IMG/VR virus record: IMGVR_UViG_3300044946_000175
Location: 1-64,000 of that record
Length of the DNA stretch: 64,000 nt
Direction: 5' to 3' (one strand)
Source of the DNA: a virus
Notes under the pieces: generated by a model
What the model saw: only the letters and a program-made list of their open reading frames with translations
Database searches by the model: none
Told to the model about the DNA's origin: nothing
Made by a program: the position numbers and the translations under genes
Part shown: piece after piece, positions 7,945 to 38,735 of the stretch
Numbering within the stretch: position 1 is the stretch's first letter
Layout of the letters: each line of letters begins with the position of its first letter

Positions 7945-7976
7945 GAGAGCCCCAATCCTATGACTGGGGCTCTTTC
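7945..7976 (+). terminator. Hairpin upstream of the portal gene
   Basis: gagagcccca...tggggctcttt stem followed by a T-rich tract. Confidence 0.45.
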
Positions 7977-8031
7977 ATTTCTGCTGAATTTTGATACACT
8001 ATTCCAGTTCAAAGTCCACCGGAATAGTGTC

Positions 8032-10890
8032 ATGTCTGAAATTGATGTAGTTCGCCTTCGGCCCGACATTCCGACAAAGGCCGATTTTCATTCCGATCCA
8101 ACAAATCGGAAGCAGTGGACAATGGAAAATTTCCGCTTACCTAGCGGAGAAAGTATGCTAGGGCCGGACGCATTTCTAGTGCCTCCCAGTCGTGAGTTTA
8201 CTCAAATAGTTAATTCAGCAACCAAGGTTTATAGCTATCGTTTCGACGAAGCTATGAGGGACACATATGTAAACGCTCGTTCGATGATGAGAGACACGTT
8301 CATTCTCGGCCTTTTAGAAGAACGCATTCTTCCCACCATCAACCGCGACTGGCATCTCACCGTTGAAGATGAAAAAGATCCATTCCAGGTTCACGTTCGG
8401 GATAGCCTTACCAAAGTCGTGAAGAGAATCAAGGACTTCGACGCCATGCGTCGGCAGTTCATGATGGGGGCATGGTGGGGTCGTGGTGGCAATCAGTGGA
8501 ACTTCACACGACTGGAAGACTTGAACAATGCGTGGGGTATTGGAAATTGGGACCCCCTTCACGGCGATTCAATCCAGTTCACGTACGACGGCGTTCCGGC
8601 GATCATGCTCGACAGCATGACGACGGGTTGGTACGCGCGGAATGGAGCGAAATGGGGCATCGACTTGCGTTGGACGGATCGGGGTGGCACGGCTCTCTGC
8701 CTTCAGCGTCCATACTGGCGCGAGCGGTTTGGTATCTATCAGCACATCCGTCAGAAAGCTGATTATTTTGAAGGTGAACTGGCCGGATCGGTGCAGGGAT
8801 TCGGTTTGCGGGGTCAGGTCTATTGGCAGTATATCGCTCGATCCGATGCCTTGACGTGGATGCTGGCCTACATGCAGGCCGTCGGCATGATGGACCTGCT
8901 CGTCTTCAATTATCCAGCCGGGAATGAGGCCGCACGTCTCCAGCAAATCGCCAATGCTCAAGCCGTGATCGGTAAAGCCGCCATCGTCTGTCCTCGTAAT
9001 CCGCAGGGGAACTGGCCAGCCATCGAACAGATTCAGATGAATGAGGCCGGACTGAAGGCGTTACAAAACCTCGTGGCGGACTACTTTGATCGGAACATCG
9101 AGAGAATGATCGTCGGTCAAAGCATGTCGTCTGGCGGCGGACAGATGCAGGGGTTGGGCGATACGGGACGGGCATTTTTGGCGAAGGCAACTAAAGACGA
9201 GATTTTGATTCATGATGCAAATCGTCATGATAATGTATTGACTTATGATCTACTTGCGCCTCTCAAACGGTACAATTTCCCCACAGCTAAGTTCCCGGTT
9301 TATTTCAAGTCGCTCCTGCCGAATACAGAAGCAGCAGAGAAAGTTCGGAATGGTCTGGACCTCGTAAGCATTCAAGTGCCGATTAAGATGAACGAGTTGC
9401 GAGAGGCGGCTGGTTACGCTCATCCAGAGCAGGATGATGAAGTGGCAGGTGGACCTCCTCCAATGATGCCGATGGACCCGATGGGAATGTCAGGTGAAGG
9501 CGCGCCTCCCATGCTTCCGGCTGCTGGCGGCGCAACTACATTCGCGAATGCTGGCGGAGTCCAGGAACCGATGCCATTCTCGCGGGATTCTTGGGACATG
9601 CCGACAAGATTTATGGGAACGGCTCCGGGTGGGATGGGGACCACGCCATCTGGATTTGGTTTTCCTGGAGGAAGTAATACTTATCTGCCAGGAGGAAACT
9701 TCGGCAAAAGGCAAAAGAAGATCGGATTTACTCGATACGATTATCCAGTTCAGCCAATGACGCAAGAGCAGCCTTATCCGCGCGTGCTGGTGCGCGGGGA
9801 TACTATATGTGTGGATACCGGATTGGAGAGATTTACGCTTTATCCAGGCGATCAGCTTTACTCGGAATGGATTTCCTGGGTCGCTGCCAACAGACAAAAA
9901 GTTCGTTGGGCATCGGTTAGCGACCCGTCGATTGCTCCTCAGTTCGGTCAGACGCTGATTGCTCCCGAACAGTATCACAATCGACGCAGGCCGACGCACT
10001 ATAAGTACTACGATCAGATATTTGAAGATGCTGGTGGTGCATGGAAAGTACCTGATATCAAACATTACATCAACATGATGAGTATTCAGCCCCAAGCATT
10101 AAGTGTGAGCAAACTAGCGATTAACAATCTCAAACCAGGAGAAGAAGAGGCAGAAGACGAACTGCCTGGCCATCCAGAATTTATCGAACGTGCAGACCAG
10201 ACAGACCTCGAATTTCCGATCATGGTTATTCGTTACCCAGATGGAGATTGGATATGTGACGGCGTTCATCGATTGTGGAAGGCAAGAGCTAAAGGCATGA
10301 AGACTATTGAAGGCTATCTTATCACTAAAAACCAACTTGACGAAATTCCCCATCGCAGGTTACATGAGCAGTACCGGGGCTGGAAAAGACCGACGTACTA
10401 TCGGGCCGATACTGGAGGTCGAGAGCACTCTGAAACCGATGGCAAGTTCACTAATAAGAAAAATCCAGGTGGTAAGGGGGAGAACACTAAAAGACAAAAT
10501 ATTAAACGTCCCGAGTGGCGTTCGGAGAACCTGACCGATCCGAATACTCGCGTATCTAAAATTCTCAGTCATGTCAAGAGCGTGCCGCGACGGACAATCG
10601 ATCAGGCATGGAAAAAGGTAACTGGACAGTACGAGAAATTAAAGACAAAATATGGCCCGACATACGCACGCCTCATAGTAGGAAGCGCCATCGCGACACT
10701 GCCAATTCCAGTACCGGGTATTTCTCTCGCGACAGCGGGAACTATTACGGCAATTGCCATGCTTCATAAACGATTATTCGGCAACAAGAAACAGCCAACA
10801 CAGAATCGACGACTGCCGTTCGATCCTCGAACACAGGCTCGTCTTTTCCTTGATCGTTGTAGAATGAGACGCCATGCCACGACTAGCTAA
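8032..10890 (+). CDS. Portal protein (Mu gp29/DUF935-like) with a ~470-aa C-terminal extension including a ParB/Srx-like domain
   Basis: 'D..ILGLLEER', 'GFGLRGQVYW', 'IERMIVGQSMSS', 'LLAPL..YNFP' are portal-like; extension contains 'FPIMVIRYPDGDWICDGVHRLWKA'; first gene of the head module; ATG 8032 preferred over 7960. Confidence 0.75.
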   Translation: MSEIDVVRLRPDIPTKADFHSDPTNRKQWTMENFRLPSGESMLGPDAFLVPPSREFTQIVNSATKVYSYRFDEAMRDTYVNARSMMRDTFILGLLEERILPTINRDWHLTVEDEKDPFQVHVRDSLTKVVKRIKDFDAMRRQFMMGAWWGRGGNQWNFTRLEDLNNAWGIGNWDPLHGDSIQFTYDGVPAIMLDSMTTGWYARNGAKWGIDLRWTDRGGTALCLQRPYWRERFGIYQHIRQKADYFEGELAGSVQGFGLRGQVYWQYIARSDALTWMLAYMQAVGMMDLLVFNYPAGNEAARLQQIANAQAVIGKAAIVCPRNPQGNWPAIEQIQMNEAGLKALQNLVADYFDRNIERMIVGQSMSSGGGQMQGLGDTGRAFLAKATKDEILIHDANRHDNVLTYDLLAPLKRYNFPTAKFPVYFKSLLPNTEAAEKVRNGLDLVSIQVPIKMNELREAAGYAHPEQDDEVAGGPPPMMPMDPMGMSGEGAPPMLPAAGGATTFANAGGVQEPMPFSRDSWDMPTRFMGTAPGGMGTTPSGFGFPGGSNTYLPGGNFGKRQKKIGFTRYDYPVQPMTQEQPYPRVLVRGDTICVDTGLERFTLYPGDQLYSEWISWVAANRQKVRWASVSDPSIAPQFGQTLIAPEQYHNRRRPTHYKYYDQIFEDAGGAWKVPDIKHYINMMSIQPQALSVSKLAINNLKPGEEEAEDELPGHPEFIERADQTDLEFPIMVIRYPDGDWICDGVHRLWKARAKGMKTIEGYLITKNQLDEIPHRRLHEQYRGWKRPTYYRADTGGREHSETDGKFTNKKNPGGKGENTKRQNIKRPEWRSENLTDPNTRVSKILSHVKSVPRRTIDQAWKKVTGQYEKLKTKYGPTYARLIVGSAIATLPIPVPGISLATAGTITAIAMLHKRLFGNKKQPTQNRRLPFDPRTQARLFLDRCRMRRHATTS

Positions 10891-18650: not shown

Positions 18651-20189
18651 ATGCCTCCGACAATGATTCAGCCCGGTTTCAACGTCCAACACCGTCACGC
18701 TCGCGCCGTGCCGACGATGTATGCCGCGCCCGGTTCCATCGATCCTCGCAGCATTCCCCGTCCGCAGCTTCCGGCACCCAATCCGGCGCTTGGTGAGCGG
18801 ATGCGTCAACGCCGTTGGCAGGAGCGAGAGCGAGAGACGTACTACCAGCTTCGGCACGCGCCGATGCCGCACCAGTACACCCAAGACCGACCACATCTTG
18901 AATATGGCGGCGGTTCGGGCGACCCTCGTACTCAGTTTCTTCCGCAAGGTCCGCCCACGGGATTCCAGGCTCGTGGTCTGAATCAGTCGTACATCGACGC
19001 TGGCGGACGTGCGCCAACCGTATACTCCGATCCCCGTGCGCTCGTGGCTCGTGCGTCTCGTCCCACCTATGCCTACAATCGCGTTCTAGGTGTACAGAAA
19101 TCGCCGACCATGTACGCCGGTCTGGGAACGTGGCCCAATCAGTACTTTCCTGGTGGTTCCAATACGTACATCGCTTCCTACGAAGCGACTGGTCTGCTCC
19201 TCAAGTACACGCGAAACCCGACGTTCTTCCGCATCAACCGCTATCTCAAAGAGATGACGGTCAAGAACGACATGGGTTACTATCTGACGCTCGATGGTGA
19301 CTCTCCTTACCGCGTGCTTTCCATCAATGACTATCTCTGGGAAGATGGCGTGGACGCTCCCGGTGGCCGTCAAGAACGGCAGGGATTCGCATTCCAGCCA
19401 TACCGCACCACTCGGTACACTTTCCCGTTTTCTTTGGGCAGGAAGGGCGTGCAGCAGGCGGTATGGGCAATCGTGGCTGAACATGCCGCGATGCAGGCTG
19501 CGAAGGCCATGACGGTACGGACGTTGATCATGGTGAATTTGATCAATGCTGCCGCAAACTGGACCGGTCCCGGTTTCACGAACACATCCGCTGCTTCCGG
19601 CGCATGGTCCACGCAGGGAGGGGCTTCGGTTAATCCGATTCCTTACCTGCAAAACGACATCAACACGGCATTAATCGGTGTTGAGCAAGCAACTGGTGGC
19701 ATCGTCACGGATGAGGAAGCACTGACCTTTACCATGAATCCGCAGGAAGGTCGAAAGGTATCGGCTGCCGACGAGTACCGTGGATACATCAAGGGTTCTC
19801 CTGACGCTCTCGCTGCCATTACCGATCAGAGAAATCCGAACCGCAAGTACGGACTGGCTCCGTTCATCTACGGCTTGCGACTGGTGATCGAGAATGCAAT
19901 CGTGGTGACGACACCCAAGTCCGCCAATGTCGCTTCGCCAGCCGCGCAGTCGAGGTCGTACATCTGGCCGCAGGCGATTGCCATGATCGCTTCCAGGCCG
20001 CAGGGGATCGTTGCACCAGAAGAACAAACGTTGGACTTTTCGACAATTTGTGCCCGCTTCTATGAAAATCAGACCGTAGAAACCAAGTCCGATCCAGATC
20101 AACGCCGGGAAATGGGTCGTGTTGTGGAGGACTATTGCCTGTCGCTTTCGGCCCCGCAGACCGGGTGGCTTTTCACCGGAGCTAGCTGA
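18651..20189 (+). CDS. Major capsid protein (HK97-fold by inference) with a ~160-aa Pro/Arg/Tyr-rich propeptide
   Basis: Synteny after protease and decoration gene; 'LTFTMNP', 'GLAPFIYGLRLVIE', 'RVVEDY....APQTGWLF'; ~350-aa core. Confidence 0.8.
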   Translation: MPPTMIQPGFNVQHRHARAVPTMYAAPGSIDPRSIPRPQLPAPNPALGERMRQRRWQERERETYYQLRHAPMPHQYTQDRPHLEYGGGSGDPRTQFLPQGPPTGFQARGLNQSYIDAGGRAPTVYSDPRALVARASRPTYAYNRVLGVQKSPTMYAGLGTWPNQYFPGGSNTYIASYEATGLLLKYTRNPTFFRINRYLKEMTVKNDMGYYLTLDGDSPYRVLSINDYLWEDGVDAPGGRQERQGFAFQPYRTTRYTFPFSLGRKGVQQAVWAIVAEHAAMQAAKAMTVRTLIMVNLINAAANWTGPGFTNTSAASGAWSTQGGASVNPIPYLQNDINTALIGVEQATGGIVTDEEALTFTMNPQEGRKVSAADEYRGYIKGSPDALAAITDQRNPNRKYGLAPFIYGLRLVIENAIVVTTPKSANVASPAAQSRSYIWPQAIAMIASRPQGIVAPEEQTLDFSTICARFYENQTVETKSDPDQRREMGRVVEDYCLSLSAPQTGWLFTGAS

Positions 20190-20306
20190 ACAAAGAGAAG
20201 AATTCAAATTGCTTGACTCTTGTCTAGCTTTTGGTAAAAATAACAAGCCATGTCCTCGTAAGACATGGCTTGTTTCACATACCAACTCTATACTGGAGAG
20301 TCAGTC

Positions 20307-21125
20307 ATGCTCGACGTTGATTTTACACATCCGAACAATCGCTGGACATTAATCGGACCAGGAAGCAGAAAAGGATATGTGAAGGTTCAGTGTTCATGTC
20401 CAGACAAAACGATCAAGGAAATTTACGTCTATGACATCAATAAAGGCAAATCTCTTTCTTGTGGTTGTCTTCGTAAAGAAGTGATGAGTGAGACAAAAAG
20501 AACACACGGGATGTCGAAAACGGCAATCTACAATACTTGGTGTCTAATCATCAGAAGAACGGAAAACGAAGACGATCTCAGATGGGAGGATTACGGTGCT
20601 CGTGGAATTAAGATGTGTGCGAAGTGGCGAGAATCCTTTGAGGCATTTTATGCTGATATGGGAGATCCGCCGTCCGATGAGTATACCATTAATCGAATCG
20701 ATAATGATGGAAATTACGAACCGGGAAATTGTCATTGGGCAACTGATTCGGAGCAACAAAACAACAAACGTAACAACCGACTGATCGAATGGAATGGCCG
20801 CACTCAAACGATGGTTCAGTGGGAGCGTGAACTGGGTTTTCGGGAAGGCACGCTCAAGAATCGGCTCGATCAAAACAACTGGACTGTCGAGCGGGCGATG
20901 ACGACTCCGGTAAGGACAAAGAAGAAAATCACATACAATGGAAAGACGCAGGCCATCGATGAATGGGCTGAGGAGTACGGACTGACTCCCGCGATGCTGC
21001 GATCTCGGTTAAATCTAGGAATTCCATTCGAGACTGCTATAGCAACTCCTGCCTATCATTGGAAAGGCAGAGGAAATCCGATTCCGAGAGAAGCAGAAGA
21101 AGGCGAATCATGCCACAAGAAATGA
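20307..21125 (+). CDS. Free-standing HNH homing endonuclease with C-terminal DNA-binding repeats
   Basis: 'SCGC', 'YGARGIKMCAKW..SFEAFYADMG', 'TINRIDNDGNYEPGNCHWAT..EQQNNKR'; GGAG 8 nt before ATG 20307. Confidence 0.85.
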   Translation: MLDVDFTHPNNRWTLIGPGSRKGYVKVQCSCPDKTIKEIYVYDINKGKSLSCGCLRKEVMSETKRTHGMSKTAIYNTWCLIIRRTENEDDLRWEDYGARGIKMCAKWRESFEAFYADMGDPPSDEYTINRIDNDGNYEPGNCHWATDSEQQNNKRNNRLIEWNGRTQTMVQWERELGFREGTLKNRLDQNNWTVERAMTTPVRTKKKITYNGKTQAIDEWAEEYGLTPAMLRSRLNLGIPFETAIATPAYHWKGRGNPIPREAEEGESCHKK

Positions 21126-21442
21126 AAGGCCGAAGAATCCCCGTCGTCGATCCGATGGCCGATCCTTATGACTTGCTTAAAGAGCCGGGGGATTATTATG
21201 GACCGACGATGTTTTGTGGCTATTTGTCAGTTTGGTACATACTTCCAAATGCAAAAGATGATCCACGAGCAATCGGATTGCATCACTGCAAGATCGACCC
21301 TCCGCAGTTTCATTCGTTGATTGAAGAGTCGGATGGAACTCTGACCCTTCGAAATTCCATCGGAGCAGGCCCACCTAACTACTACTGGCATGGATTTTTG
21401 AATCAGGGTGATTGGATGCTGACACAGAGGGATAAAAAGTGA
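21110..21442 (+). CDS. Hypothetical protein (DUF6527-like motif)
   Basis: 'DGTLTLRNSI....YWHGFLNQGDW' C-terminal motif. Confidence 0.45.
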   Translation: MPQEMKGRRIPVVDPMADPYDLLKEPGDYYGPTMFCGYLSVWYILPNAKDDPRAIGLHHCKIDPPQFHSLIEESDGTLTLRNSIGAGPPNYYWHGFLNQGDWMLTQRDKK

Positions 21443-22287
21443 ACATCGATCAAGCACGAGACGGCGGATCGAGTATCGCGGATGAGCCGCCAGCGGAGCC
21501 GTACGTCCCGAACGAAGAGGCCACTACACTCTTGCGGAAGTACGCCGCCAATCCAACGTTTTATCGAATCAATAAGTACGCCGCGTCCACCCGTGTTGAC
21601 AGGCTGACTGAAACGCAAAAGCAGTTCGTGCCAGAGACTACTCGGTACATGTACTACTTCGGTCTTCCGCGAGTCAATAAAAGTGACATTGCCGTGGCTG
21701 AGTACGCCGCGATGCAGGTCGCAAAAGCAATGACAGCGCGGACCATGTTTGCCGTGGATACGCTAAGTTGCCGGTCGCTGTGGGGAAGTGCGGCAAGGTA
21801 CAAGTTTCCAAAGACAAAAGAGGAATGGGAATTCTTTTTGGAGGTGTGGGCAGGTCGAAATAAGTCGCTAGACCGCGAGAACTTCGTGTTGGTGATGAAT
21901 CCCACTCGGGCGAGCGATTGGGCGCAGTCCAAAGAAGTAGTCGAATGGCTCAATAGTGGTGTCGGTCAACGCATGGCAGATGTAATGGATCAGAGAAATC
22001 CGAACCGCAAGTATGGGCTTCACTCGCGACCATTCGGTATCAAGACGGTTGTCGAGAATGCAATTAAGGTCGATCTCGAAATCGAACCCAAACGCCAATA
22101 CGTCTGGCCGAGAGAACTCTGCTGCGTGCTTTACGTTCCGCACGAGCATGGTGATCCGTTCGACGCCACACTTCGGATGAGCATGGAAGAAGAAATGACA
22201 GTTGAGCAGAAGAGCGACAGAGGCAGAGTTGTTGAGGACTACTCGTTCATCGCTCCGAATTCCAGGACTGGTTGTTTGTTAGTGTGA
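21439..22287 (+). CDS. Internally deleted paralog of the major capsid protein
   Basis: Collinear with 18651-20189: EAT.LL.KY..NPTF.RIN.Y, TTRY, VAE.AAMQ.AKAMT.RT, MNP, DQRNPNRKYGL, ENAI.V, Y.WP, GRVVEDY. Confidence 0.9.
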   Translation: MNIDQARDGGSSIADEPPAEPYVPNEEATTLLRKYAANPTFYRINKYAASTRVDRLTETQKQFVPETTRYMYYFGLPRVNKSDIAVAEYAAMQVAKAMTARTMFAVDTLSCRSLWGSAARYKFPKTKEEWEFFLEVWAGRNKSLDRENFVLVMNPTRASDWAQSKEVVEWLNSGVGQRMADVMDQRNPNRKYGLHSRPFGIKTVVENAIKVDLEIEPKRQYVWPRELCCVLYVPHEHGDPFDATLRMSMEEEMTVEQKSDRGRVVEDYSFIAPNSRTGCLLV

Positions 22288-22322
22288 AAGACAAAACAAG
22301 AAATCCAAACTAAGGAGAATTT

Positions 22323-22610
22323 ATGTCTGAGGAACCAACCAGAACGAAGATCGTGATTTTTAACTATCCTGCTGGTAACGAGTTGGCCAAAAAACAGCAG
22401 ACAGAAAATGCTGCGATGCTCGTCGATTGCATGACCATCGCGTGCCCTCGCGATCCGCAGGGAAACTGGCCAGCGGTTGAGGAGGTTGTTGCAATAGAGA
22501 TCAGCGACATTCGATTGACGGCGGCAATCGAAGTGTTGAAACTTGGTAAGGCAGAGGAGAGGTTGCGAAAAGAAGCCCTTGACGTGGTTGTGGGGTATTT
22601 GAAAGGCTGA
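22323..22610 (+). CDS. Small protein carrying a fragment of the portal protein
   Basis: IFNYPAGNELAKKQQTENA...CPRDPQGNWPAVE vs portal VFNYPAGNEAARLQQIANA...CPRNPQGNWPAIE; AAGGAG RBS. Confidence 0.85.
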   Translation: MSEEPTRTKIVIFNYPAGNELAKKQQTENAAMLVDCMTIACPRDPQGNWPAVEEVVAIEISDIRLTAAIEVLKLGKAEERLRKEALDVVVGYLKG

Positions 22611-22621
22611 AAAGATAAATC

Positions 22622-22783
22622 ATGACCAGAAATCCCAAATATGCTGCTGTTTTAGCGATTCTTCAGCTTGTCTTGGGGATTTATTTGCTGGACGCAGGAA
22701 AGACTTTGTTGGGAGGTTTTACGATGTGGTGCTGCGGAGTGAACACAGTGCTTATGATTAATACACAACCAAAAACGACGTAG
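22622..22783 (+). CDS. Small membrane protein (53 aa, below the ORF-track cutoff)
   Basis: MTRNPKYAAVLAILQLVLGIYLL...; stop codon abuts the next ATG. Confidence 0.5.
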   Translation: MTRNPKYAAVLAILQLVLGIYLLDAGKTLLGGFTMWCCGVNTVLMINTQPKTT

Positions 22784-23155
22784 ATGTTGTATCTTTTTAC
22801 CACCGCTGCCGAACTTGCCAAGTCGCGTTCACGCCCGACTGTGGGCATTATGATCCATCTCGACACGGGCAAGAAATATTTCTTTCCCTCTCCCACGACA
22901 GTCATTCAAGGACAGCCGGTTCCTGCATTTCTTGGGGGGATTTTAGCCGAGCAAGCACTGGGTCGCGAACTGATCGAACTGCCGAGCACGAAGATCGAAT
23001 ATGGTTTAAATGAGAAGGGTACTTGGACCTGTCTGAAGGTGCTGAAACATGCTATAACAGAAGAAGCACCGGCGGATCAGTCCGTGCCGGTATCGCCGAA
23101 AGAGCCCACTCCGGACGATTATGCTGCCGTGGCGGTGATAGGAAAAGACGGATGA
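22784..23155 (+). CDS. Hypothetical protein
   Basis: Translationally coupled on both sides. Confidence 0.6.
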   Translation: MLYLFTTAAELAKSRSRPTVGIMIHLDTGKKYFFPSPTTVIQGQPVPAFLGGILAEQALGRELIELPSTKIEYGLNEKGTWTCLKVLKHAITEEAPADQSVPVSPKEPTPDDYAAVAVIGKDG

Positions 23156-23673
23156 TTACCTACGAAGAATTTGAGCAATTGGTGACGAACGCTCAGCGCG
23201 CCCTGGACCAATTGAAGGAAGGTTTGGTGCAGTACAAGCCGCCACGTCCGACTGGCCCCTGCGCCGAAATCACCATTGACGAGAAACAACACGTATTTTT
23301 TGTCGAGTTCACGGATAATAAAGGGCCGTTTCTGAGACAGACATACGAAGGTGATTTTGCTTCTCCAGATCCTCCACTTCAGCCAGTCATGCAGACGATC
23401 ATGACTTCTGCTTTGATCTGGATAGAAAAACAATGTCCAGGAATCATGGAGGATAATGTCAGCGTGGTCTTGACGCAGAGACAGGCCAGATTGTATGGAC
23501 GATCCTTTGAAAATAAGGCACATATCAAAGGCGCACCGGATGCTTTGACTGCTGTTTGCGAGCAGAGGAATCCTCATCGGCGGTACTCGCTCTGTCCATT
23601 CCTTTACGGAATTCGGTTGCGGATCGAGAATCGGAAAGAAGAAGATCTTGTGGTATTGCAGGAGGTGGGATGA
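23152..23673 (+). CDS. Protein whose C-terminal half is a fragment of the MCP (putative A-domain)
   Basis: HIKGAPDALTAVCEQRNPHRRYSLCPFLYGIRLRIEN vs MCP YIKGSPDALAAITDQRNPNRKYGLAPFIYGLRLVIEN. Confidence 0.85.
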   Translation: MITYEEFEQLVTNAQRALDQLKEGLVQYKPPRPTGPCAEITIDEKQHVFFVEFTDNKGPFLRQTYEGDFASPDPPLQPVMQTIMTSALIWIEKQCPGIMEDNVSVVLTQRQARLYGRSFENKAHIKGAPDALTAVCEQRNPHRRYSLCPFLYGIRLRIENRKEEDLVVLQEVG

Positions 23674-24266
23674 TGTCGATACCCCAAACATCCAACTCCA
23701 GTCTCGTACCGTATGTTTCGGCGATCCAGACATTCGGTTTCTTCTCGCAAAAAGTCATAGCTGATATGCTGAAGGCAAACACTGATTCGCCTCGTCCTTC
23801 TTATCTAGCGTGTATTGATCCGAACAACTACTTTGGTCGGAAATGGTTGCAGCACATTGGATTCGGTGCCGGAGAAATTGAATCAGCGGTTGTCGTGGCT
23901 TCTCGGTACACACCAGCCGATCTTATGAATTTGACCGGCGTGAGCCAGATTCTACTTCAAGGCTTGAACGCAGCCAGGGCGCTATGGTCTGCCTACAAAA
24001 TTTTGAAACCTGGTACGGCTCGTCCTGAAGAATGTCCTGCTGCTCGTGAAAGTTTTGAGATGCTTACGCAGTTGAGAGATGGCGAAAAACTATTTAGCTT
24101 CCAAGAATCGGAAAAAGCAGGACTTGTTGCCGTGATTCCGCCTAATCCTTATGCCCTCGCGCCAGGGCAGTCTACAATTGTCCCTCGCCTGGTACGTCTC
24201 TTTCCCACATATGGTATCAATTCATTACTGAATCGTGGTGGTTACAATCGTGGCGGTGACTGCTAG
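23670..24266 (+). CDS. Head-tail adaptor (Mu gp36/DUF1320-like)
   Basis: 'GEIESAVVVASRYTPADL', 'SFEMLTQLRDGEKL'; GGAGG RBS; position after the capsid genes. Confidence 0.65.
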   Translation: MMSIPQTSNSSLVPYVSAIQTFGFFSQKVIADMLKANTDSPRPSYLACIDPNNYFGRKWLQHIGFGAGEIESAVVVASRYTPADLMNLTGVSQILLQGLNAARALWSAYKILKPGTARPEECPAARESFEMLTQLRDGEKLFSFQESEKAGLVAVIPPNPYALAPGQSTIVPRLVRLFPTYGINSLLNRGGYNRGGDC

Positions 24267-24850
24267 ATATGCGTCCAGATTTTTCTTTTAAGTATGTTGC
24301 AGATTAAAGCCGGACTCACGTTGTAATGTTCGGCTATCTGGCGTTGTGATACGAATTCACCAGCAGCATAGCAACGGCGGATTTCAAGGACGATGCTTTC
24401 GTCCAAAACAGCCATGTTGTTCTTGGCTCCGTTCTGATCTCGGTTATGTCCGTGAGACACACGATCATCGATGTTTTCTTGTTTAGTTCCCCAACGAAGA
24501 TTCTCGACTCGATTATTTTTGGCATCACCGTTCAGATGGCGACATTCCATGCTTTCTGGACGGGGACCAACAAAAGCAAATAAAACAAGATGATGGACTG
24601 AATATCGTTTGTGTTTTTTGTTTGGTCCGCATAAAGTCACACGGCAATGTCCATATGTGCTGCTTGGATCGGTAAGCAAATCGGACCAGTTATTATTGAG
24701 CAAGTTAGGGTTCGTAGTTCGGCGAGTTTGCACACTTCCATCATCTCCAACCCGATACCCCGAATAGCCCAGAAAATCCAGCGTCCGATAGCAAACGTCG
24801 GAAATTTCGTCGTAAAAGAACTGGTGGCTGGTAGAATTGACATCGAACAT
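24263..24850 (-). CDS. HNH homing endonuclease (NUMOD4/HNH_3-like with C-terminal HTH)
   Basis: 'GYRVGDDGSV', 'VHHLVLFAFVGPRP..MECRHLNGD..NNRVENLRWGT..EN'. Confidence 0.9.
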   Translation of the reverse strand: MFDVNSTSHQFFYDEISDVCYRTLDFLGYSGYRVGDDGSVQTRRTTNPNLLNNNWSDLLTDPSSTYGHCRVTLCGPNKKHKRYSVHHLVLFAFVGPRPESMECRHLNGDAKNNRVENLRWGTKQENIDDRVSHGHNRDQNGAKNNMAVLDESIVLEIRRCYAAGEFVSQRQIAEHYNVSPALICNILKRKIWTHI

Positions 24851-26159: not shown

Positions 26160-27340
26160 GTTTATGCTAGAGGATAGCAGGTAAAATATCTTTGCAACTA
26201 AACGCTAGGTAGATGCTAAAACGTCTGTTGTTTTTGGGGCTGGTTTACGAACAGCCCAAGCACTCAAATTGAGCGCGGCGTTGAGATCGGCATTCACGGA
26301 GAGTCCGCAATGCATGCAGACAAACTCAGACTGATTCTTGCGATTTGTCTTTTCGCAGTGTCCACACTTGGAGCAGGCGCGGCTGCTGTTTCGTGGATCG
26401 ACGGCAACGACAGGCACGCCTGCCAGTCGAGCTTTGTACTCCACGAAAGTTCTGAGTTGTGCGAATGCCCAATTACCGAAACGACGACGAAATCTTCGGC
26501 CAACCGTATCCTCGATTCGGTTTCGGATTCCCTTGAGGTCTTCAAGAGCGATTCCCAATCGAAGTGTCTTTGCCTTTTCGACCAGTCGCTTGCTAATGTT
26601 ATGGTTTGTCCATGTTTGAAATCGACGCTGACGACCGGACATGGACTTCAACCGACGTTTTGCATTCTTGGTTCCTTTTCGTTGGTATTGTTTGCGAGCA
26701 GTCATCCGACGTTTGCGGTTTCGTTCGACACAAGTACCAGAGAATTGCTCTCCGGTGGAATCGGTGGCAATATTAGCAATTCCGAGATCGACTCCCAAGA
26801 AGTTTTTAATTTCCAATATTGGATCTTCGGGAATGTCGCATGTGGCAAACAAGAAGAATTTTCCATCTCGATAAACCAGATCTACTTGTCCTTTAAGGCG
26901 GGCAAGATTGGCTTTTTGATAATCACCGAAAATGTAAGGAACGAGAATGCGGCCATTCAAAGTCAAAATCGAAACTTTGTCGCATCCCTTCCACGACAGA
27001 ATTCGCTCATCGTATGTTATTCCTCCGGTAGATTTAAAAATTGGACAAATAGATCTGTCTCGCTTAAAACACTCAGCGGCTTTACCAATGGCACGAATAG
27101 CCATCTGAGCCGACAAGCCGAACCGCTCACGAAGTTCTCGGTAGCAGAGTTTTTGAATCGATGGAGCAGAAAACAAGCCAGCGTCGAATCCTGCTTTTGC
27201 GGCAAACGATGCAGCGGCATTGCATGCTCTCAATGTAACGAGCAAAAAAGAGGCCTGTTCGTCAGTAGGCAGCAGTCGAACTTGAACGGTTAGTTTCATG
27301 ATTGTATTATAGGGAGTGCCGGACTCCCTAACAATATCGA
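26160..27340 (-). mobile_element. Solo-TnpB (IS1341-like) element without tnpA
   Basis: Subterminal hairpin tagggagt-gccgg-actcccta at 27310-27330; antisense insertion in the tail operon; right boundary uncertain. Confidence 0.65.
26205..27299 (-). CDS. tnpB: TnpB RNA-guided endonuclease (IS200/IS605 family)
   Basis: RuvC motifs GVDLG, IALEDL, NADLNAA intact; zinc ribbon CSKC..CMHC; 'VDPRNSSR'. Confidence 0.95.
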   Translation of the reverse strand: MKLTVQVRLLPTDEQASFLLVTLRACNAAASFAAKAGFDAGLFSAPSIQKLCYRELRERFGLSAQMAIRAIGKAAECFKRDRSICPIFKSTGGITYDERILSWKGCDKVSILTLNGRILVPYIFGDYQKANLARLKGQVDLVYRDGKFFLFATCDIPEDPILEIKNFLGVDLGIANIATDSTGEQFSGTCVERNRKRRMTARKQYQRKGTKNAKRRLKSMSGRQRRFQTWTNHNISKRLVEKAKTLRLGIALEDLKGIRNRIEDTVGRRFRRRFGNWAFAQLRTFVEYKARLAGVPVVAVDPRNSSRACSKCGHCEKTNRKNQSEFVCMHCGLSVNADLNAALNLSAWAVRKPAPKTTDVLAST

Positions 27341-38132: not shown

Positions 38133-38735
38133 TTATGTGACATGCTTCCATCTGGCCCGCGTCACAGCGCCTCGTACTGCACCAAATGGTTTATTATATT
38201 TTCTACAAATCTGAGTAATCATAGCTCCACTATCGTATTCGATTCGCATAATTCGAACCAGGTCTTCCGTTAGTACGGCATTTCCATTACCTTCTCCGCG
38301 ACTGCTTGTTCCGTGTTTTATTTTGTCTGCTGCATTGCCTTGCGGTGTATCCCATCTGAGATTGGATAATTTATTGTTTTGCTGATCGCCATCGTTATGG
38401 CATCCTTCCATTCCAAGCGGACGAGGGCCAACGAACGCTTCAAGAACTAGACAATGAACGAGAATTTCCTTTCTGTAGTAATGGCGGTAAAGACCAAATA
38501 TTGAATACGATTTGTTATTTAACCTTGATTTACGTCGTTTCCATACAGTTCCGACTATTAAGACTGATCCGCTTCCGTTACCTTTGCCTCTTTTGCCGTG
38601 ATATGAACAATTCCAAACCGATCCGTCATCCCCTACTCGATAGCCTGGAAATCCCATAAAATCCAGCTTGCGGTAACAAACATCGTTTTCAGGATCGCAA
38701 TGGAATTCTGGAATGCTAGAATAGCCGTCTGACAT
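38133..38735 (-). CDS. HNH homing endonuclease, paralog of 24263-24850
   Basis: 'DVCYRKLDFMGFPGYRVGDDGSV', 'VHCLVLEAFVGPRPLGMEGCHNDGD..NN.LSNLRW'; ATG 38735 has GGAG upstream. Confidence 0.9.
   Translation of the reverse strand: MSDGYSSIPEFHCDPENDVCYRKLDFMGFPGYRVGDDGSVWNCSYHGKRGKGNGSGSVLIVGTVWKRRKSRLNNKSYSIFGLYRHYYRKEILVHCLVLEAFVGPRPLGMEGCHNDGDQQNNKLSNLRWDTPQGNAADKIKHGTSSRGEGNGNAVLTEDLVRIMRIEYDSGAMITQICRKYNKPFGAVRGAVTRARWKHVT

What the first reader, a model, noticed from the sequence alone, without database searches (positions are those of the whole stretch)
21439..22287. MCP paralog missing the propeptide and the predicted protruding loops
Collinear with the MCP from YEATGLLLKY to the C-terminus. 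It lacks the ~160-aa propeptide. The ~45-aa segment GYYLTLDGDSPYRVLSINDYLWEDGVDAPGGRQERQGF is replaced by ~10 aa, and DPDQRREM is missing before GRVVEDY. By position in the HK97 fold these would be the E-loop and a P-domain loop that make inter-subunit contacts (inference). A 26-nt exact DNA match (gatcagagaaatccgaaccgcaagta at 19824-19849 and 21988-22013) within otherwise diverged DNA suggests constraint or gene conversion. A loop-less capsid monomer would suit a chain terminator, vertex protein or soluble decoy.
Basis: partly seen in the sequence, partly recalled or inferred. Interest (0 to 1): 0.8.

Follow-up and report, generated by a model that had tools for sequence, protein, structure and literature searches.

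The report
Loop-less capsid-protein paralog family in phages
A soil phage that probably infects Planctomycetota keeps, just behind its capsid gene, an intact cut-down copy of that gene that retains the side of the protein which receives a neighbouring subunit but has lost the arm that reaches out to the next one, so it probably binds capsid protein without being able to build a shell.

Summary
ORF 21439-22287 (PAR, 282 aa) is collinear with the 512-aa capsid protein (MCP, 18651-20189). It lacks the N-terminal 172 residues, the E-loop and the tip of the long P-domain hairpin, and shares an exact 26-nt patch with the MCP.

It is not a relic or a singleton.
- PAR is predicted to fold as an HK97 protein.
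- Its frame is far too open for neutral decay.
- It belongs to a small, fast-evolving, monophyletic family of E-loop-less MCP paralogs.
- A second phage (L092) carries two such genes at the same place, between the MCP gene and the next conserved head gene. Three other relatives carry none.

PAR keeps the MCP residues of the face that receives a neighbour's E-loop and A-domain helix: 32 of 44, against 62 of 203 elsewhere. The opposite face is largely deleted. A complex prediction places it beside the MCP like a capsomer neighbour.

My best reading is a one-sided, non-propagating pseudo-subunit that binds MCP. Its physiological role is open: assembly cap or chaperone, shield or decoy against host MCP sensors, or interference with rival phages.

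Earlier notes of this scan describe similar truncated capsid paralogs on other DNA. My literature searches found no paper describing such a family.

The parts
18651..20189 (+). Major capsid protein (MCP), 512 aa. Residues about 1-165 are a low-complexity N-terminal extension; residues about 166-512 are the HK97-fold core.
   Evidence: 107 homologues with E <= 0.001 among 8000 candidates. AF2 core pLDDT is mostly 80-90. Foldseek top hits are 3bjq, HRP29, HK97 and other phage capsids. It lies downstream of a Mu-type portal gene at 7960-10890. No Pfam or PHROG hit.
19824..19849 (+). 26-nt exact repeat, copy in the MCP gene (codons for DQRNPNRKY)
20242..20274 (.). 13-15 bp hairpin between the MCP stop codon and the HNH gene. 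It could be a terminator or attenuator after the MCP gene, or a 5' leader of the homing endonuclease gene.
   Evidence: Function not tested.
20307..21125 (+). HNH homing endonuclease (HNH1). The ORF is open from 20265; the likely start is the ATG at 20307, behind GGAGAG.
   Evidence: phrog_3377, E 1.5e-65; sequence read. Its homologue in L092 sits elsewhere, inside the protease/scaffold gene, so it is a separate mobile insertion.
21427..21432 (+). Shine-Dalgarno-like GAGGGA, 6 nt before the GTG start of PAR. The GTG overlaps the stop codon of the upstream ORF (GTGA).
   Evidence: read directly
21439..22287 (+). PAR: a 282-aa HK97-fold MCP paralog without the N-terminal extension, the E-loop and the P-hairpin tip. 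It is a member of the short-paralog family.
21988..22013 (+). 26-nt exact repeat, copy in PAR
22323..22610 (+). 95-aa ORF whose residues 10-55 copy portal residues 313-358. It has a strong AAGGAG ribosome-binding site.
   Evidence: 54% identity over 46 aa, E 9e-19; tblastn on the genome; sequence read
22784..23155 (+). 123-aa ORF of unknown function. A homologue precedes the second short paralog in L092.
   Evidence: 30% identity over 89 aa to L092 9741-9980
23152..23673 (+). FRAG: a 173-aa ORF (ATGA overlap with the preceding stop codon) whose C-terminal 85 aa are an MCP A-domain piece (MCP 331-415)
   Evidence: 42% identity, E 6e-21. hhalign probability 98.8 to the MCP profile against 70 to the short-family profile. 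It keeps 13 of 20 'donor' A-domain contact residues.
23676..24266 (+). Conserved head-module gene (ORF open from 23556) that follows the MCP gene after a short gap with no MCP-like gene in relatives L006 and L008. It marks the far edge of the variable insert.
   Evidence: 42-49% identity to L006, L008 and L092
24263..24850 (-). HNH_3 homing endonuclease (HNH2), at the same position in L092
   Evidence: PF13392, E 8e-13

Best explanation
PAR is a functional gene kept by selection. It encodes a stripped-down HK97-fold copy of the phage's capsid protein and belongs to a small, old, fast-evolving family of such copies. These sit in a variable slot just downstream of the capsid gene in some roughly 100-kb phages, probably of Planctomycetota.

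The protein keeps the surface that, in a capsomer ring, receives the neighbour's E-loop (on its spine helix) and the neighbour's A-domain helix (on its QRNPNRKYGL loop and VENA strand). It has lost its own E-loop, its N-terminal extension and the P-hairpin tip, and it does not conserve the A-domain helix and GSPDAL loop that it would offer to the next subunit.

It should therefore dock onto the 'donor' side of an MCP monomer or an open capsomer as a pseudo-subunit that cannot recruit a further subunit or lock into a lattice.

Shown here: homology, fold, family, synteny, selection on the open frame and the asymmetric conservation.
Inferred: binding to the MCP, and its one-sidedness.
Open: what the binding is for. 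I rank an accessory control of MCP assembly or availability (cap or holdase for free MCP) first. Masking MCP from host sensors and interference with co-infecting relatives are sub-readings that share the same molecular mechanism.
For: Fold: AF2 pLDDT 86.4, pTM 0.83. VIA Z 18.2 (rmsd 3.4 Å, 242 residues aligned) to 3bjq_D, and Z 12.5 to HK97 prohead II 2gp1_A.

Selection: the nucleotide p-distance to the MCP is 0.527, ordered 3rd > 1st > 2nd codon position (0.66, 0.51, 0.41). Neutral drift to that distance left 0 of 5000 simulated frames open (mean 10.6 stops); at half that distance, 1 of 5000. An SD-like site, a GTGA overlap and tight packing with neighbouring ORFs were read.

Family: HMMER over 1.84 billion representatives gave 42 hits. 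I examined the 11 hits between 212 and 316 aa that matched most of the query. Ten of them (255-316 aa) share the loss of the E-loop, and all but P0123 also lack DPDNRRE. The eleventh, P0115, is an N-truncated ordinary MCP. In a 36-row tree the 12 short proteins form one clade (SH-aLRT 100), sister to the long-N-terminus MCP clade (93). Their terminal branches are 0.5-2.2, against 0.02-0.33 for the MCPs.

Synteny: L092 carries, in order, MCP (P0024), short copy A, an o123-like ORF, short copy B (P0114), an o236-like gene and HNH2(-). Longest-contig lengths also tie P0117 to MCP P0051 (84,803) and P0111 to MCP P0087 (28,283).

Binding: complex prediction on MCP 166-512 plus PAR scored 0.62, against 0.00 for the best of 3 controls. 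That mark was reached by 58 of 80 solved complexes and 2 of 110 mismatched pairs. The runs share at least 71% of contacts, and the partner's pLDDT is at least 80. In the model the MCP contributes its E-loop (220-231, 245-246), helix 338-355 and GSPDA 382-386. PAR contributes its spine helix 84-104, residues 183-193 and 207-211.

Asymmetry: PAR is identical to the MCP at 32 of 44 of its contact residues, against 62 of 203 aligned non-interface residues (p 3e-7). Without the possibly converted DQR/KYGL residues it is 25 of 37 (p 3e-5). Of the 39 positions equivalent to the MCP's contact residues, 19 are deleted, against 61 of 264 elsewhere (p 0.0015). Ten of the 12 short-family members show the same excess on the receiving face (p < 0.05), and 0 of 9 true MCPs of the 340-aa clade do.

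Accessory nature: 3 of 5 related records with DNA at hand (L006, L007, L008) have no such gene anywhere in the record. None of 80 IMG/VR MCP loci has a second MCP-like match within the flanks fetched (up to 10 kb where the contig allows).
Against: - The complex pass may only reflect likeness to solved capsomers, as the tool warns. My own alignments were used, so its calibration holds only roughly.
- The contact lists come from that same model, which may favour conserved residues.
- Where the 'donor' positions are still aligned, they are not less conserved than background (5 of 20 against 62 of 203, p 0.8). The asymmetry rests on the excess on the receiving face plus the deletions.
- Two of 12 family members (L092 short copy A and P0123) show no excess on the receiving face.
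- In one search's alignment 4 of the 12 have lost the NPNRKYGL loop altogether (L092 short copy A, P0116, P0117, P0123). Only about five keep a near-complete form of it.
- Within the family, the receiving-face columns are only slightly more conserved than the rest (0.349 against 0.292).
- The PAR model was built on an alignment made mostly of full MCPs (A1).
- There are no expression or virion-proteome data.
- A one-sided binder made alongside the MCP should interfere with the phage's own assembly. Nothing here shows how that is avoided or exploited.
Confidence: 0.5

Rival explanations
1. Anti-sensor decoy or shield. PAR, together with FRAG and the portal-fragment ORF, exists to defeat host pattern-recognition proteins that sense the HK97 capsid fold or the portal. 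It would do this either by covering the capsomer-forming surface of free MCP or by occupying the sensor without activating it.
For: [quoted passage not shown] Avs4 and Avs11 sense portals (PMC13581612, passages read).
- The 2.3-kb stretch 21439-23673 holds three intact ORFs copied from exactly these proteins.
- PAR and FRAG keep complementary A-domain faces within MCP 331-415. PAR keeps 9 of 12 receiving-face and 4 of 20 donor residues; FRAG keeps 13 of 20 donor residues.
- Fast evolution, patchy presence and copy-number change are typical of conflict genes (general knowledge).
Against: - No host sensor was looked for or found.
- No known anti-defence family matched: there were no Pfam or PHROG hits.
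- A fragment that resembles the trigger could just as well activate a sensor.
- The receiving face stays MCP-like, which argues that its partner is the MCP itself rather than a rapidly changing host protein.
Confidence: 0.17
2. Minor shell subunit. PAR is built into the capsid at special positions (pentons, or sites next to the portal), like T4 gp24 or the satellite protein Ccm.
For: - It is an MCP paralog encoded next to the MCP gene, as gp24 is to gp23 (PMC3012670, abstract and passages).
- Ccm is a capsid-protein homologue at 24% identity that occupies the pentons (PMC8569155, passages).
- The complex model places PAR in a capsomer-like position.
- Its GC3 of 0.60 resembles the MCP's 0.62, against a genome GC of 0.50.
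Against: - PAR lacks the E-loop, the N-terminal part and the P-hairpin tip. Ccm keeps an E-loop, an N-arm and a delta domain.
- The face it would offer to the next ring member is deleted or unconserved. A homopentamer would need both faces to match each other, yet only one stays MCP-like.
- The gene is absent from 3 of 5 relatives and is doubled in L092.
- It evolves 5-20 times faster than the MCP.
Confidence: 0.12
3. Weapon against co-infecting relatives. PAR is a dominant-negative pseudo-subunit that caps the MCPs of competing phages of the same lineage.
For: - It has the same molecular features as the best explanation.
- The receiving face matches the consensus of the whole long-MCP clade (28 of 44), so it could bind relatives' MCPs.
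- It sits among homing endonucleases, which also act during co-infection.
- A precedent exists for capsid homologues used as weapons: Ccm.
Against: It matches its own MCP equally well (32 of 44), so self-poisoning is not avoided in any visible way. There are no data on co-infection.
Confidence: 0.1
4. Non-functional relic. PAR is a decaying leftover of a duplication of the capsid gene driven by homing endonucleases or recombination.
For: - The slot is a hot spot with two HNH genes.
- In L092 an HNH ORF (2036-2890) begins with a duplicate of the N-terminus of the next gene, so such insertions do create partial gene copies in this lineage.
- L007 has unrelated ORFs in the same slot.
- No orthologue above 40% identity was found.
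Against: - 0 of 5000 neutral simulations keep the frame open.
- The divergence pattern by codon position is that of a coding sequence.
- Ten other family members are intact proteins despite 1-2 changes per site.
- All deletions are in frame and fall in loops.
- There is a ribosome-binding site and a coupled start codon.
Confidence: 0.05

Closest known systems
The phage's own HK97-fold major capsid protein family (long-N-terminus clade, about 485-512 aa; no Pfam or PHROG model matched)
   Same: They are homologous over the whole core (31% identity by BLASTP; 37% in alignment A1). They share the P-domain spine helix, the A-domain, the long P-hairpin, and the motifs AAMQxAKAMTxRT, DQRNPNRKYGL, VENA and GRVVEDY.
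   Different: PAR has no N-terminal extension, E-loop or P-hairpin tip. The GSPDAL motif is lost. 11 of the 23 invariant MCP columns are changed or deleted (my reading of the invariant-column lists). It evolves 5-20 times faster and is optional.
T4 gp24 vertex protein, a paralog of gp23
   Same: It is a second HK97-fold protein related to the major capsid protein of the same phage (PMC3012670, abstract and passages). That the two T4 genes are neighbours is my recollection.
   Different: gp24 forms pentamers at 11 vertices and is an essential shell protein that can be bypassed only by gp23 mutations. That gp24 keeps a full HK97 fold with an E-loop is my recollection and was not read here. PAR lacks the E-loop and is absent from 3 of 5 relatives.
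SaPIbov5 Ccm, a capsid-protein homologue of a phage satellite
   Same: It is a diverged capsid-protein homologue (24% identity) that joins the helper phage's capsid protein and redirects assembly. It cannot form capsids alone (PMC8569155, passages).
   Different: Ccm is encoded by a satellite, not by the phage. It keeps a delta domain, an N-arm and an E-loop, and it builds the pentons. That paper's supplementary interaction tables were not seen.
Family 4 'A-domain encapsulins' (DUF1884)
   Same: They are natural, heavily truncated HK97-fold proteins kept as intact genes (PMC8346489, passages). They are a closer analogue of FRAG than of PAR.
   Different: They are about 100 aa, consist of the A-domain only, are cellular (mostly archaeal) and are paired with enzymes. 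PAR keeps both the P- and A-domains and is a phage gene beside its MCP gene.
Two-component Family 2B encapsulin shells
   Same: Two HK97-fold paralogs work together (PMC11071501, search listing and start of abstract only).
   Different: There, both proteins are shell-forming. Nothing was read on loop loss.

Membership tests
HK97-fold capsid protein superfamily | A-domain plus P-domain with a long spine helix and a long P-domain beta-hairpin | tested here: met
   AF2 pLDDT 86.4. Z 18.2 to 3bjq_D, Z 12.5 to 2gp1_A, and 493 of 993 chains with Z >= 8. Foldseek probability 1.00 to capsids and encapsulins.
HK97-fold capsid protein superfamily | Extended E-loop hairpin that lies over the neighbouring subunit | tested here: not met
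   MCP about 204-247 is replaced by about 10 residues. The PAR model runs from strand 49-52 through a short loop to strand 68-75.
HK97-fold capsid protein superfamily | N-arm or N-terminal assembly (delta or scaffold-like) region | tested here: not met
   PAR starts at the equivalent of MCP residue about 173. Its residues 1-15 have pLDDT below 50. The nearly invariant MCP residues P167, N171 and T172 are not kept.
HK97-fold capsid protein superfamily | Self-assembly into capsomers and closed shells | not testable with these tools
   Only a 1:1 MCP-PAR prediction was possible, because one complex job was allowed.
Vertex or penton paralog (T4 gp24 type) | Conserved, essential partner of the MCP across the lineage | tested here: not met
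   3 of 3 related IMG/VR records (77%, 69% and 82% complete) hold only the MCP. L092 holds two copies.
Vertex or penton paralog (T4 gp24 type) | Both ring-forming faces kept, so that homopentamers can form | tested here: inconclusive
   The receiving face is kept (32 of 44). The donating face has 19 of 39 positions deleted, with the rest at background identity. No homo-oligomer prediction was run.
Satellite capsid-redirecting homologue (Ccm type) | Encoded by a satellite or island that parasitises a helper phage | tested here: not met
   PAR lies inside the head module of a 119-kb virus record that has its own portal and MCP genes.
Family 4 A-domain encapsulins | About 100 aa, A-domain only | tested here: not met
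   PAR is 282 aa and has a P-domain and a spine helix. No Pfam hit, including DUF1884.
Short E-loop-less MCP paralogs of long-MCP phages (unnamed; defined here) | 255-316 aa. Shared loss of the N-extension and E-loop, and in most members of the DPDNRRE tip. One clade apart from the MCPs. Encoded between the MCP gene and the next conserved head gene. | tested here: met
   Alignment A3. Clade support SH-aLRT 100, with PAR pairing with P0109 at 98. Synteny was seen in 2 of 2 members whose DNA was available, the window and L092.

The most novel reading that the evidence does not exclude
The slot behind the capsid gene is an 'interface-mimic' module. The phage keeps cut-down copies of the virion proteins that bacterial pattern-recognition receptors sense: the capsid protein twice (PAR keeps the receiving face; FRAG keeps the donating A-domain face) and a 46-residue portal piece. 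It would use them to mask free capsid and portal protein, or to jam the sensors. That would be a new anti-defence principle: self-derived decoys of core structural proteins.
Probability: 0.15. Interest if true: 0.9.

Novelty: new variant of a known kind. Interest (0 to 1): 0.62.

Why it matters
Second capsid-fold proteins are known as shell parts (T4 gp24), as satellite weapons (Ccm) and as cellular mini-domains (Family 4 encapsulins). I found no description of a phage-encoded capsid copy, kept by selection, that retains one ring-forming face and has lost the other, in 7 full-text searches.

If it binds capsid protein one-sidedly, it is a natural capping reagent for HK97 assembly. It would give a handle on two open questions: how phages keep free capsid protein from assembling too early, and how they keep it from being seen by host sensors of the capsid fold.

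Unchecked earlier notes of this scan report comparable truncated capsid paralogs in unrelated phages and in an archaeal virus. The phenomenon may therefore be general rather than a curiosity of one soil phage.

Tried and rejected
- Pfam and PHROGs gave nothing for the MCP, PAR, FRAG or the small neighbouring ORFs.
- The word-indexed protein search found only PAR itself plus 3 MCPs. With the family profile it recovered only PAR and P0131 besides MCPs, so the family size rests.
- IMG/VR scans with the MCP alone, P0109, P0110, P0114 and P0123 and alignment A6 found no further short-family locus.
- The Planctomycetota genome sample gave 1 match in 401 genomes, the centre genome's own MCP. The family was not found in the genomes searched.
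- The ESM Atlas returned only generic phage-capsid clusters.
- Expression: no RNA holder was listed. Three soil-metagenome DNA runs hold the stretch, and one of them may be its source. The contigs laid on it were identical, so there was no polymorphism from which to estimate dN/dS.
I tried no fold test.
- I considered that PAR travels with HNH1 as one cassette and rejected it, because the HNH1 homologue in L092 lies elsewhere.
- I considered that FRAG is a decayed member of the short family and rejected it, because it matches the MCP profile far better.
- I considered the 26-nt patch as a nucleotide-level functional site and could not test it. Shared derived synonymous codons make conversion the simpler reading.
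- Rows dropped: P0115 was left out of the tree and the face counts as an N-truncated ordinary MCP. Of the 42 hits, only the 11 between 212 and 316 aa with near-full coverage were aligned. P0126, P0133, P0142 and the hits of roughly 320-380 aa were not examined.
Full report
**Setting.** The window is the first 64 kb of a 119,161-bp IMG/VR virus record, estimated 85% complete.
- It carries a Mu-type portal gene at 7960-10890 (PF06074, E 1e-24).
- Neither Pfam nor PHROGs recognises the MCP. It has 107 homologues with E <= 0.001 among 8000 candidates. Its AF2 core matches phage capsids, including HK97.
- Seven of eight hits in species genomes are MAGs of the Planctomycetota lineage and one is Chloroflexota. 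The host is therefore probably a planctomycete. Only 1 of 401 sampled genomes of that phylum matched, and that was the centre genome itself.

PAR (21439-22287) aligns collinearly with MCP 173-509 at 31% identity, E 9e-31.
- It lacks MCP residues 1-172.
- MCP about 204-247 is replaced by about ten residues, and six residues of DPDQRREM are missing. In total 80 of 347 core residues are gapped.
- In the MCP model the first segment is a long beta-hairpin (strands 208-214 and 246-263). The second is the tip between strands 466-481 and 486-499. These are the E-loop and the P-domain hairpin tip.
- The 26-nt repeat is exact and occurs only twice in the genome.

**The 26-nt patch.** It covers the only long run of identical residues, DQRNPNRKYGL.
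- Elsewhere only 43 of 102 identical residues share a codon. Eight matching codons in a row has a chance of about 0.42^8, or 1e-3; this is my own arithmetic.
- Three other MCP genes that encode the same nine residues (L006, L092, and L095 with K for R) match only 21-22 of 26 nt. PAR shares its own MCP's GAT, CAG, AGA and AAT codons.
- A short gene-conversion tract between the two resident genes is the simplest reading.

**PAR is a real gene.**
- It has an SD-like GAGGGA six bases before a GTG that overlaps the preceding stop codon. Its neighbours are equally tightly packed.
- Divergence from the MCP is 0.51, 0.41 and 0.66 at codon positions 1, 2 and 3. Neutral drift to that divergence kept 0 of 5000 frames open, and 1 of 5000 at half the divergence.
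- AF2 gives pLDDT 86.4 and pTM 0.83. A caveat is that the alignment used was mostly full MCPs.
- The model matches 3bjq_D at Z 18.2 and HK97 prohead II at Z 12.5.

**PAR has a family.** A full HMMER pass over 1.84 billion representatives gave 42 hits.
- I aligned the 11 hits between 212 and 316 aa. Ten share the missing E-loop, and all but P0123 also lack the P-tip. P0115 is a truncated ordinary MCP.
- In a 36-row tree (P0115 left out) the 12 short proteins, including two from L092, form one clade (SH-aLRT 100). It is sister to the long-N-terminus MCP clade (93).
- Terminal branches are 0.5-2.2 in the short clade, against 0.02-0.33 for the MCPs. PAR has the shortest branch (0.49) and pairs with P0109 (98). 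Long-branch attraction cannot be excluded, but the shared deletions argue for one origin.

**Context.**
- In relatives L006 and L008 the MCP gene is followed, after a short gap with no MCP-like gene, by the homologue of window ORF 23676-24266. L007 has two unrelated ORFs in between.
- None of these three records has a second MCP-like gene anywhere. None of 80 IMG/VR MCP loci has one within the flanks fetched (up to 10 kb where the contig allows).
- The JGI contig L092, whose MCP is 64% identical, carries two short copies in the same slot. The second follows a homologue of window ORF 22784-23155. An HNH gene sits on the opposite strand at the same far edge.
- Longest-contig lengths tie two further short proteins to MCPs.
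- The family is therefore optional, variable in copy number and syntenic.

**Which surfaces are kept.** The complex prediction (MCP 166-512 plus PAR) scored 0.62, against 0.00 for the best of three controls.
- That mark was reached by 58 of 80 solved complexes and 2 of 110 mismatched pairs. The runs share at least 71% of contacts, and the partner's pLDDT is at least 80.
- The pass may reflect likeness to solved capsomers.
- The geometry is the textbook intracapsomer one. The MCP's E-loop lies on PAR's spine helix, as described for other HK97 capsids (PMC8569155, passages). MCP helix 338-355 and the GSPDA loop meet PAR's DQRNPNRKYGL loop and VENA strand.
- Taking the tool's contact lists, PAR is identical to the MCP at 32 of 44 of its own contact residues, against 62 of 203 aligned non-interface residues (p 3e-7). 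Without the possibly converted residues it is 25 of 37 (p 3e-5).
- Of the 39 positions equivalent to the MCP's contact residues, 19 are deleted, against 61 of 264 elsewhere (p 0.0015). The 20 that remain are at background identity (5 of 20, p 0.8).
- In true MCPs the two faces are equally conserved (0.70 and 0.72).
- Ten of 12 short-family members repeat the excess on the receiving face. L092 short copy A and P0123 do not. None of 9 control MCPs of the 340-aa clade shows it.
- Weaker points: within the family the receiving face is only slightly better conserved than the rest (0.349 against 0.292). Four of the 12 members have lost the NPNRKYGL loop altogether.

**Reading.** A protein that keeps the MCP-like receiving face, but has no E-loop, N-extension or P-tip and does not conserve the donating A-domain face, is best explained as a partner of the MCP's donating side that cannot propagate a ring or a lattice.
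- A homopentameric vertex protein would not need one face to stay MCP-like.
- A relic would not stay open.
- The purpose of the binding is not shown. The candidates are a cap or holdase for free MCP, a shield or decoy against host sensors of the capsid fold (Avs7, 8 and 10 engage the capsomer-forming A-domain region; PMC13581612, passages), and interference with co-infecting relatives.

**Neighbours that bear on this.**
- FRAG (23152-23673) ends in an 85-residue copy of MCP 331-415. It derives from a true MCP, not from the short family.
- Within that stretch FRAG keeps 13 of 20 donating-face residues, against 17 of 53 elsewhere (p 0.016). PAR keeps 9 of 12 receiving-face residues, against 13 of 53 elsewhere (p 0.002). 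The two copies thus keep complementary faces.
- ORF 22323-22610 copies portal residues 313-358.
- A genome-wide self-comparison found no other self-copies among the 12 ORFs tested, apart from HNH paralogs.

**Comparison with what is known.** T4 gp24, SaPIbov5 Ccm, Family 4 A-domain encapsulins and two-component encapsulins are the nearest known cases. None combines phage encoding beside the MCP gene, loss of the E-loop and one-sided conservation of the interface. Seven full-text searches found no description of such a family. Unchecked earlier notes of this scan list similar truncated capsid paralogs in other viruses.

Noticed in passing
window 22323-22610: A 95-aa ORF with a strong AAGGAG ribosome-binding site. 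Its residues 10-55 are 54% identical to portal residues 313-358 (E 9e-19). It is a stand-alone portal fragment in the same slot as the capsid copies.
   Followed up: partly
window 23152-23673: A 173-aa ORF whose last 85 residues copy the MCP A-domain (331-415). It keeps the GSPDAL-type motif and 13 of 20 'donating-face' residues. Its N-terminal 76 residues match nothing in the genome.
   Followed up: partly
L092 2036-2890 and 2887-5172: The HNH endonuclease ORF begins with a near-duplicate of the first 45 or so residues of the downstream protease/scaffold-like gene (both start MRRPTFYD...IPYGPDATA). This looks like a homing-endonuclease insertion that duplicated the 5' end of its target gene.
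   Followed up: no
window 20242-20274: A strong 13-15 bp hairpin between the MCP stop codon and the HNH gene. The annotated ATG at 20265 lies inside it. The likelier start is the ATG at 20307, behind GGAGAG.
   Followed up: partly
window 24263-24850 (-), 38139-38735 (-), genome 67483-67815 (+): Three paralogous HNH_3 endonuclease genes are scattered in the genome (38-41% identity to one another).
   Followed up: no
window 26205-27299 (-): A 364-aa ORF that matches phage transposase families (phrog_12300, E 2e-45; phrog_506). It is probably a TnpB/IS605-type gene inside the structural region.
   Followed up: no
window 18651-19145 (MCP residues 1-165): A Pro/Gln/Gly/Arg-rich N-terminal extension, conserved in the 485-512-aa MCP clade and absent from the 340-aa clade. 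It is low-confidence in the AF2 model. Whether it is a cleaved propeptide or a scaffold-like domain is unknown.
   Followed up: no
L007 11568-12664: In this relative, the slot between the MCP gene and the next conserved head gene holds two unrelated ORFs (103 and 262 aa). The slot is therefore a general hot spot for accessory genes.
   Followed up: no
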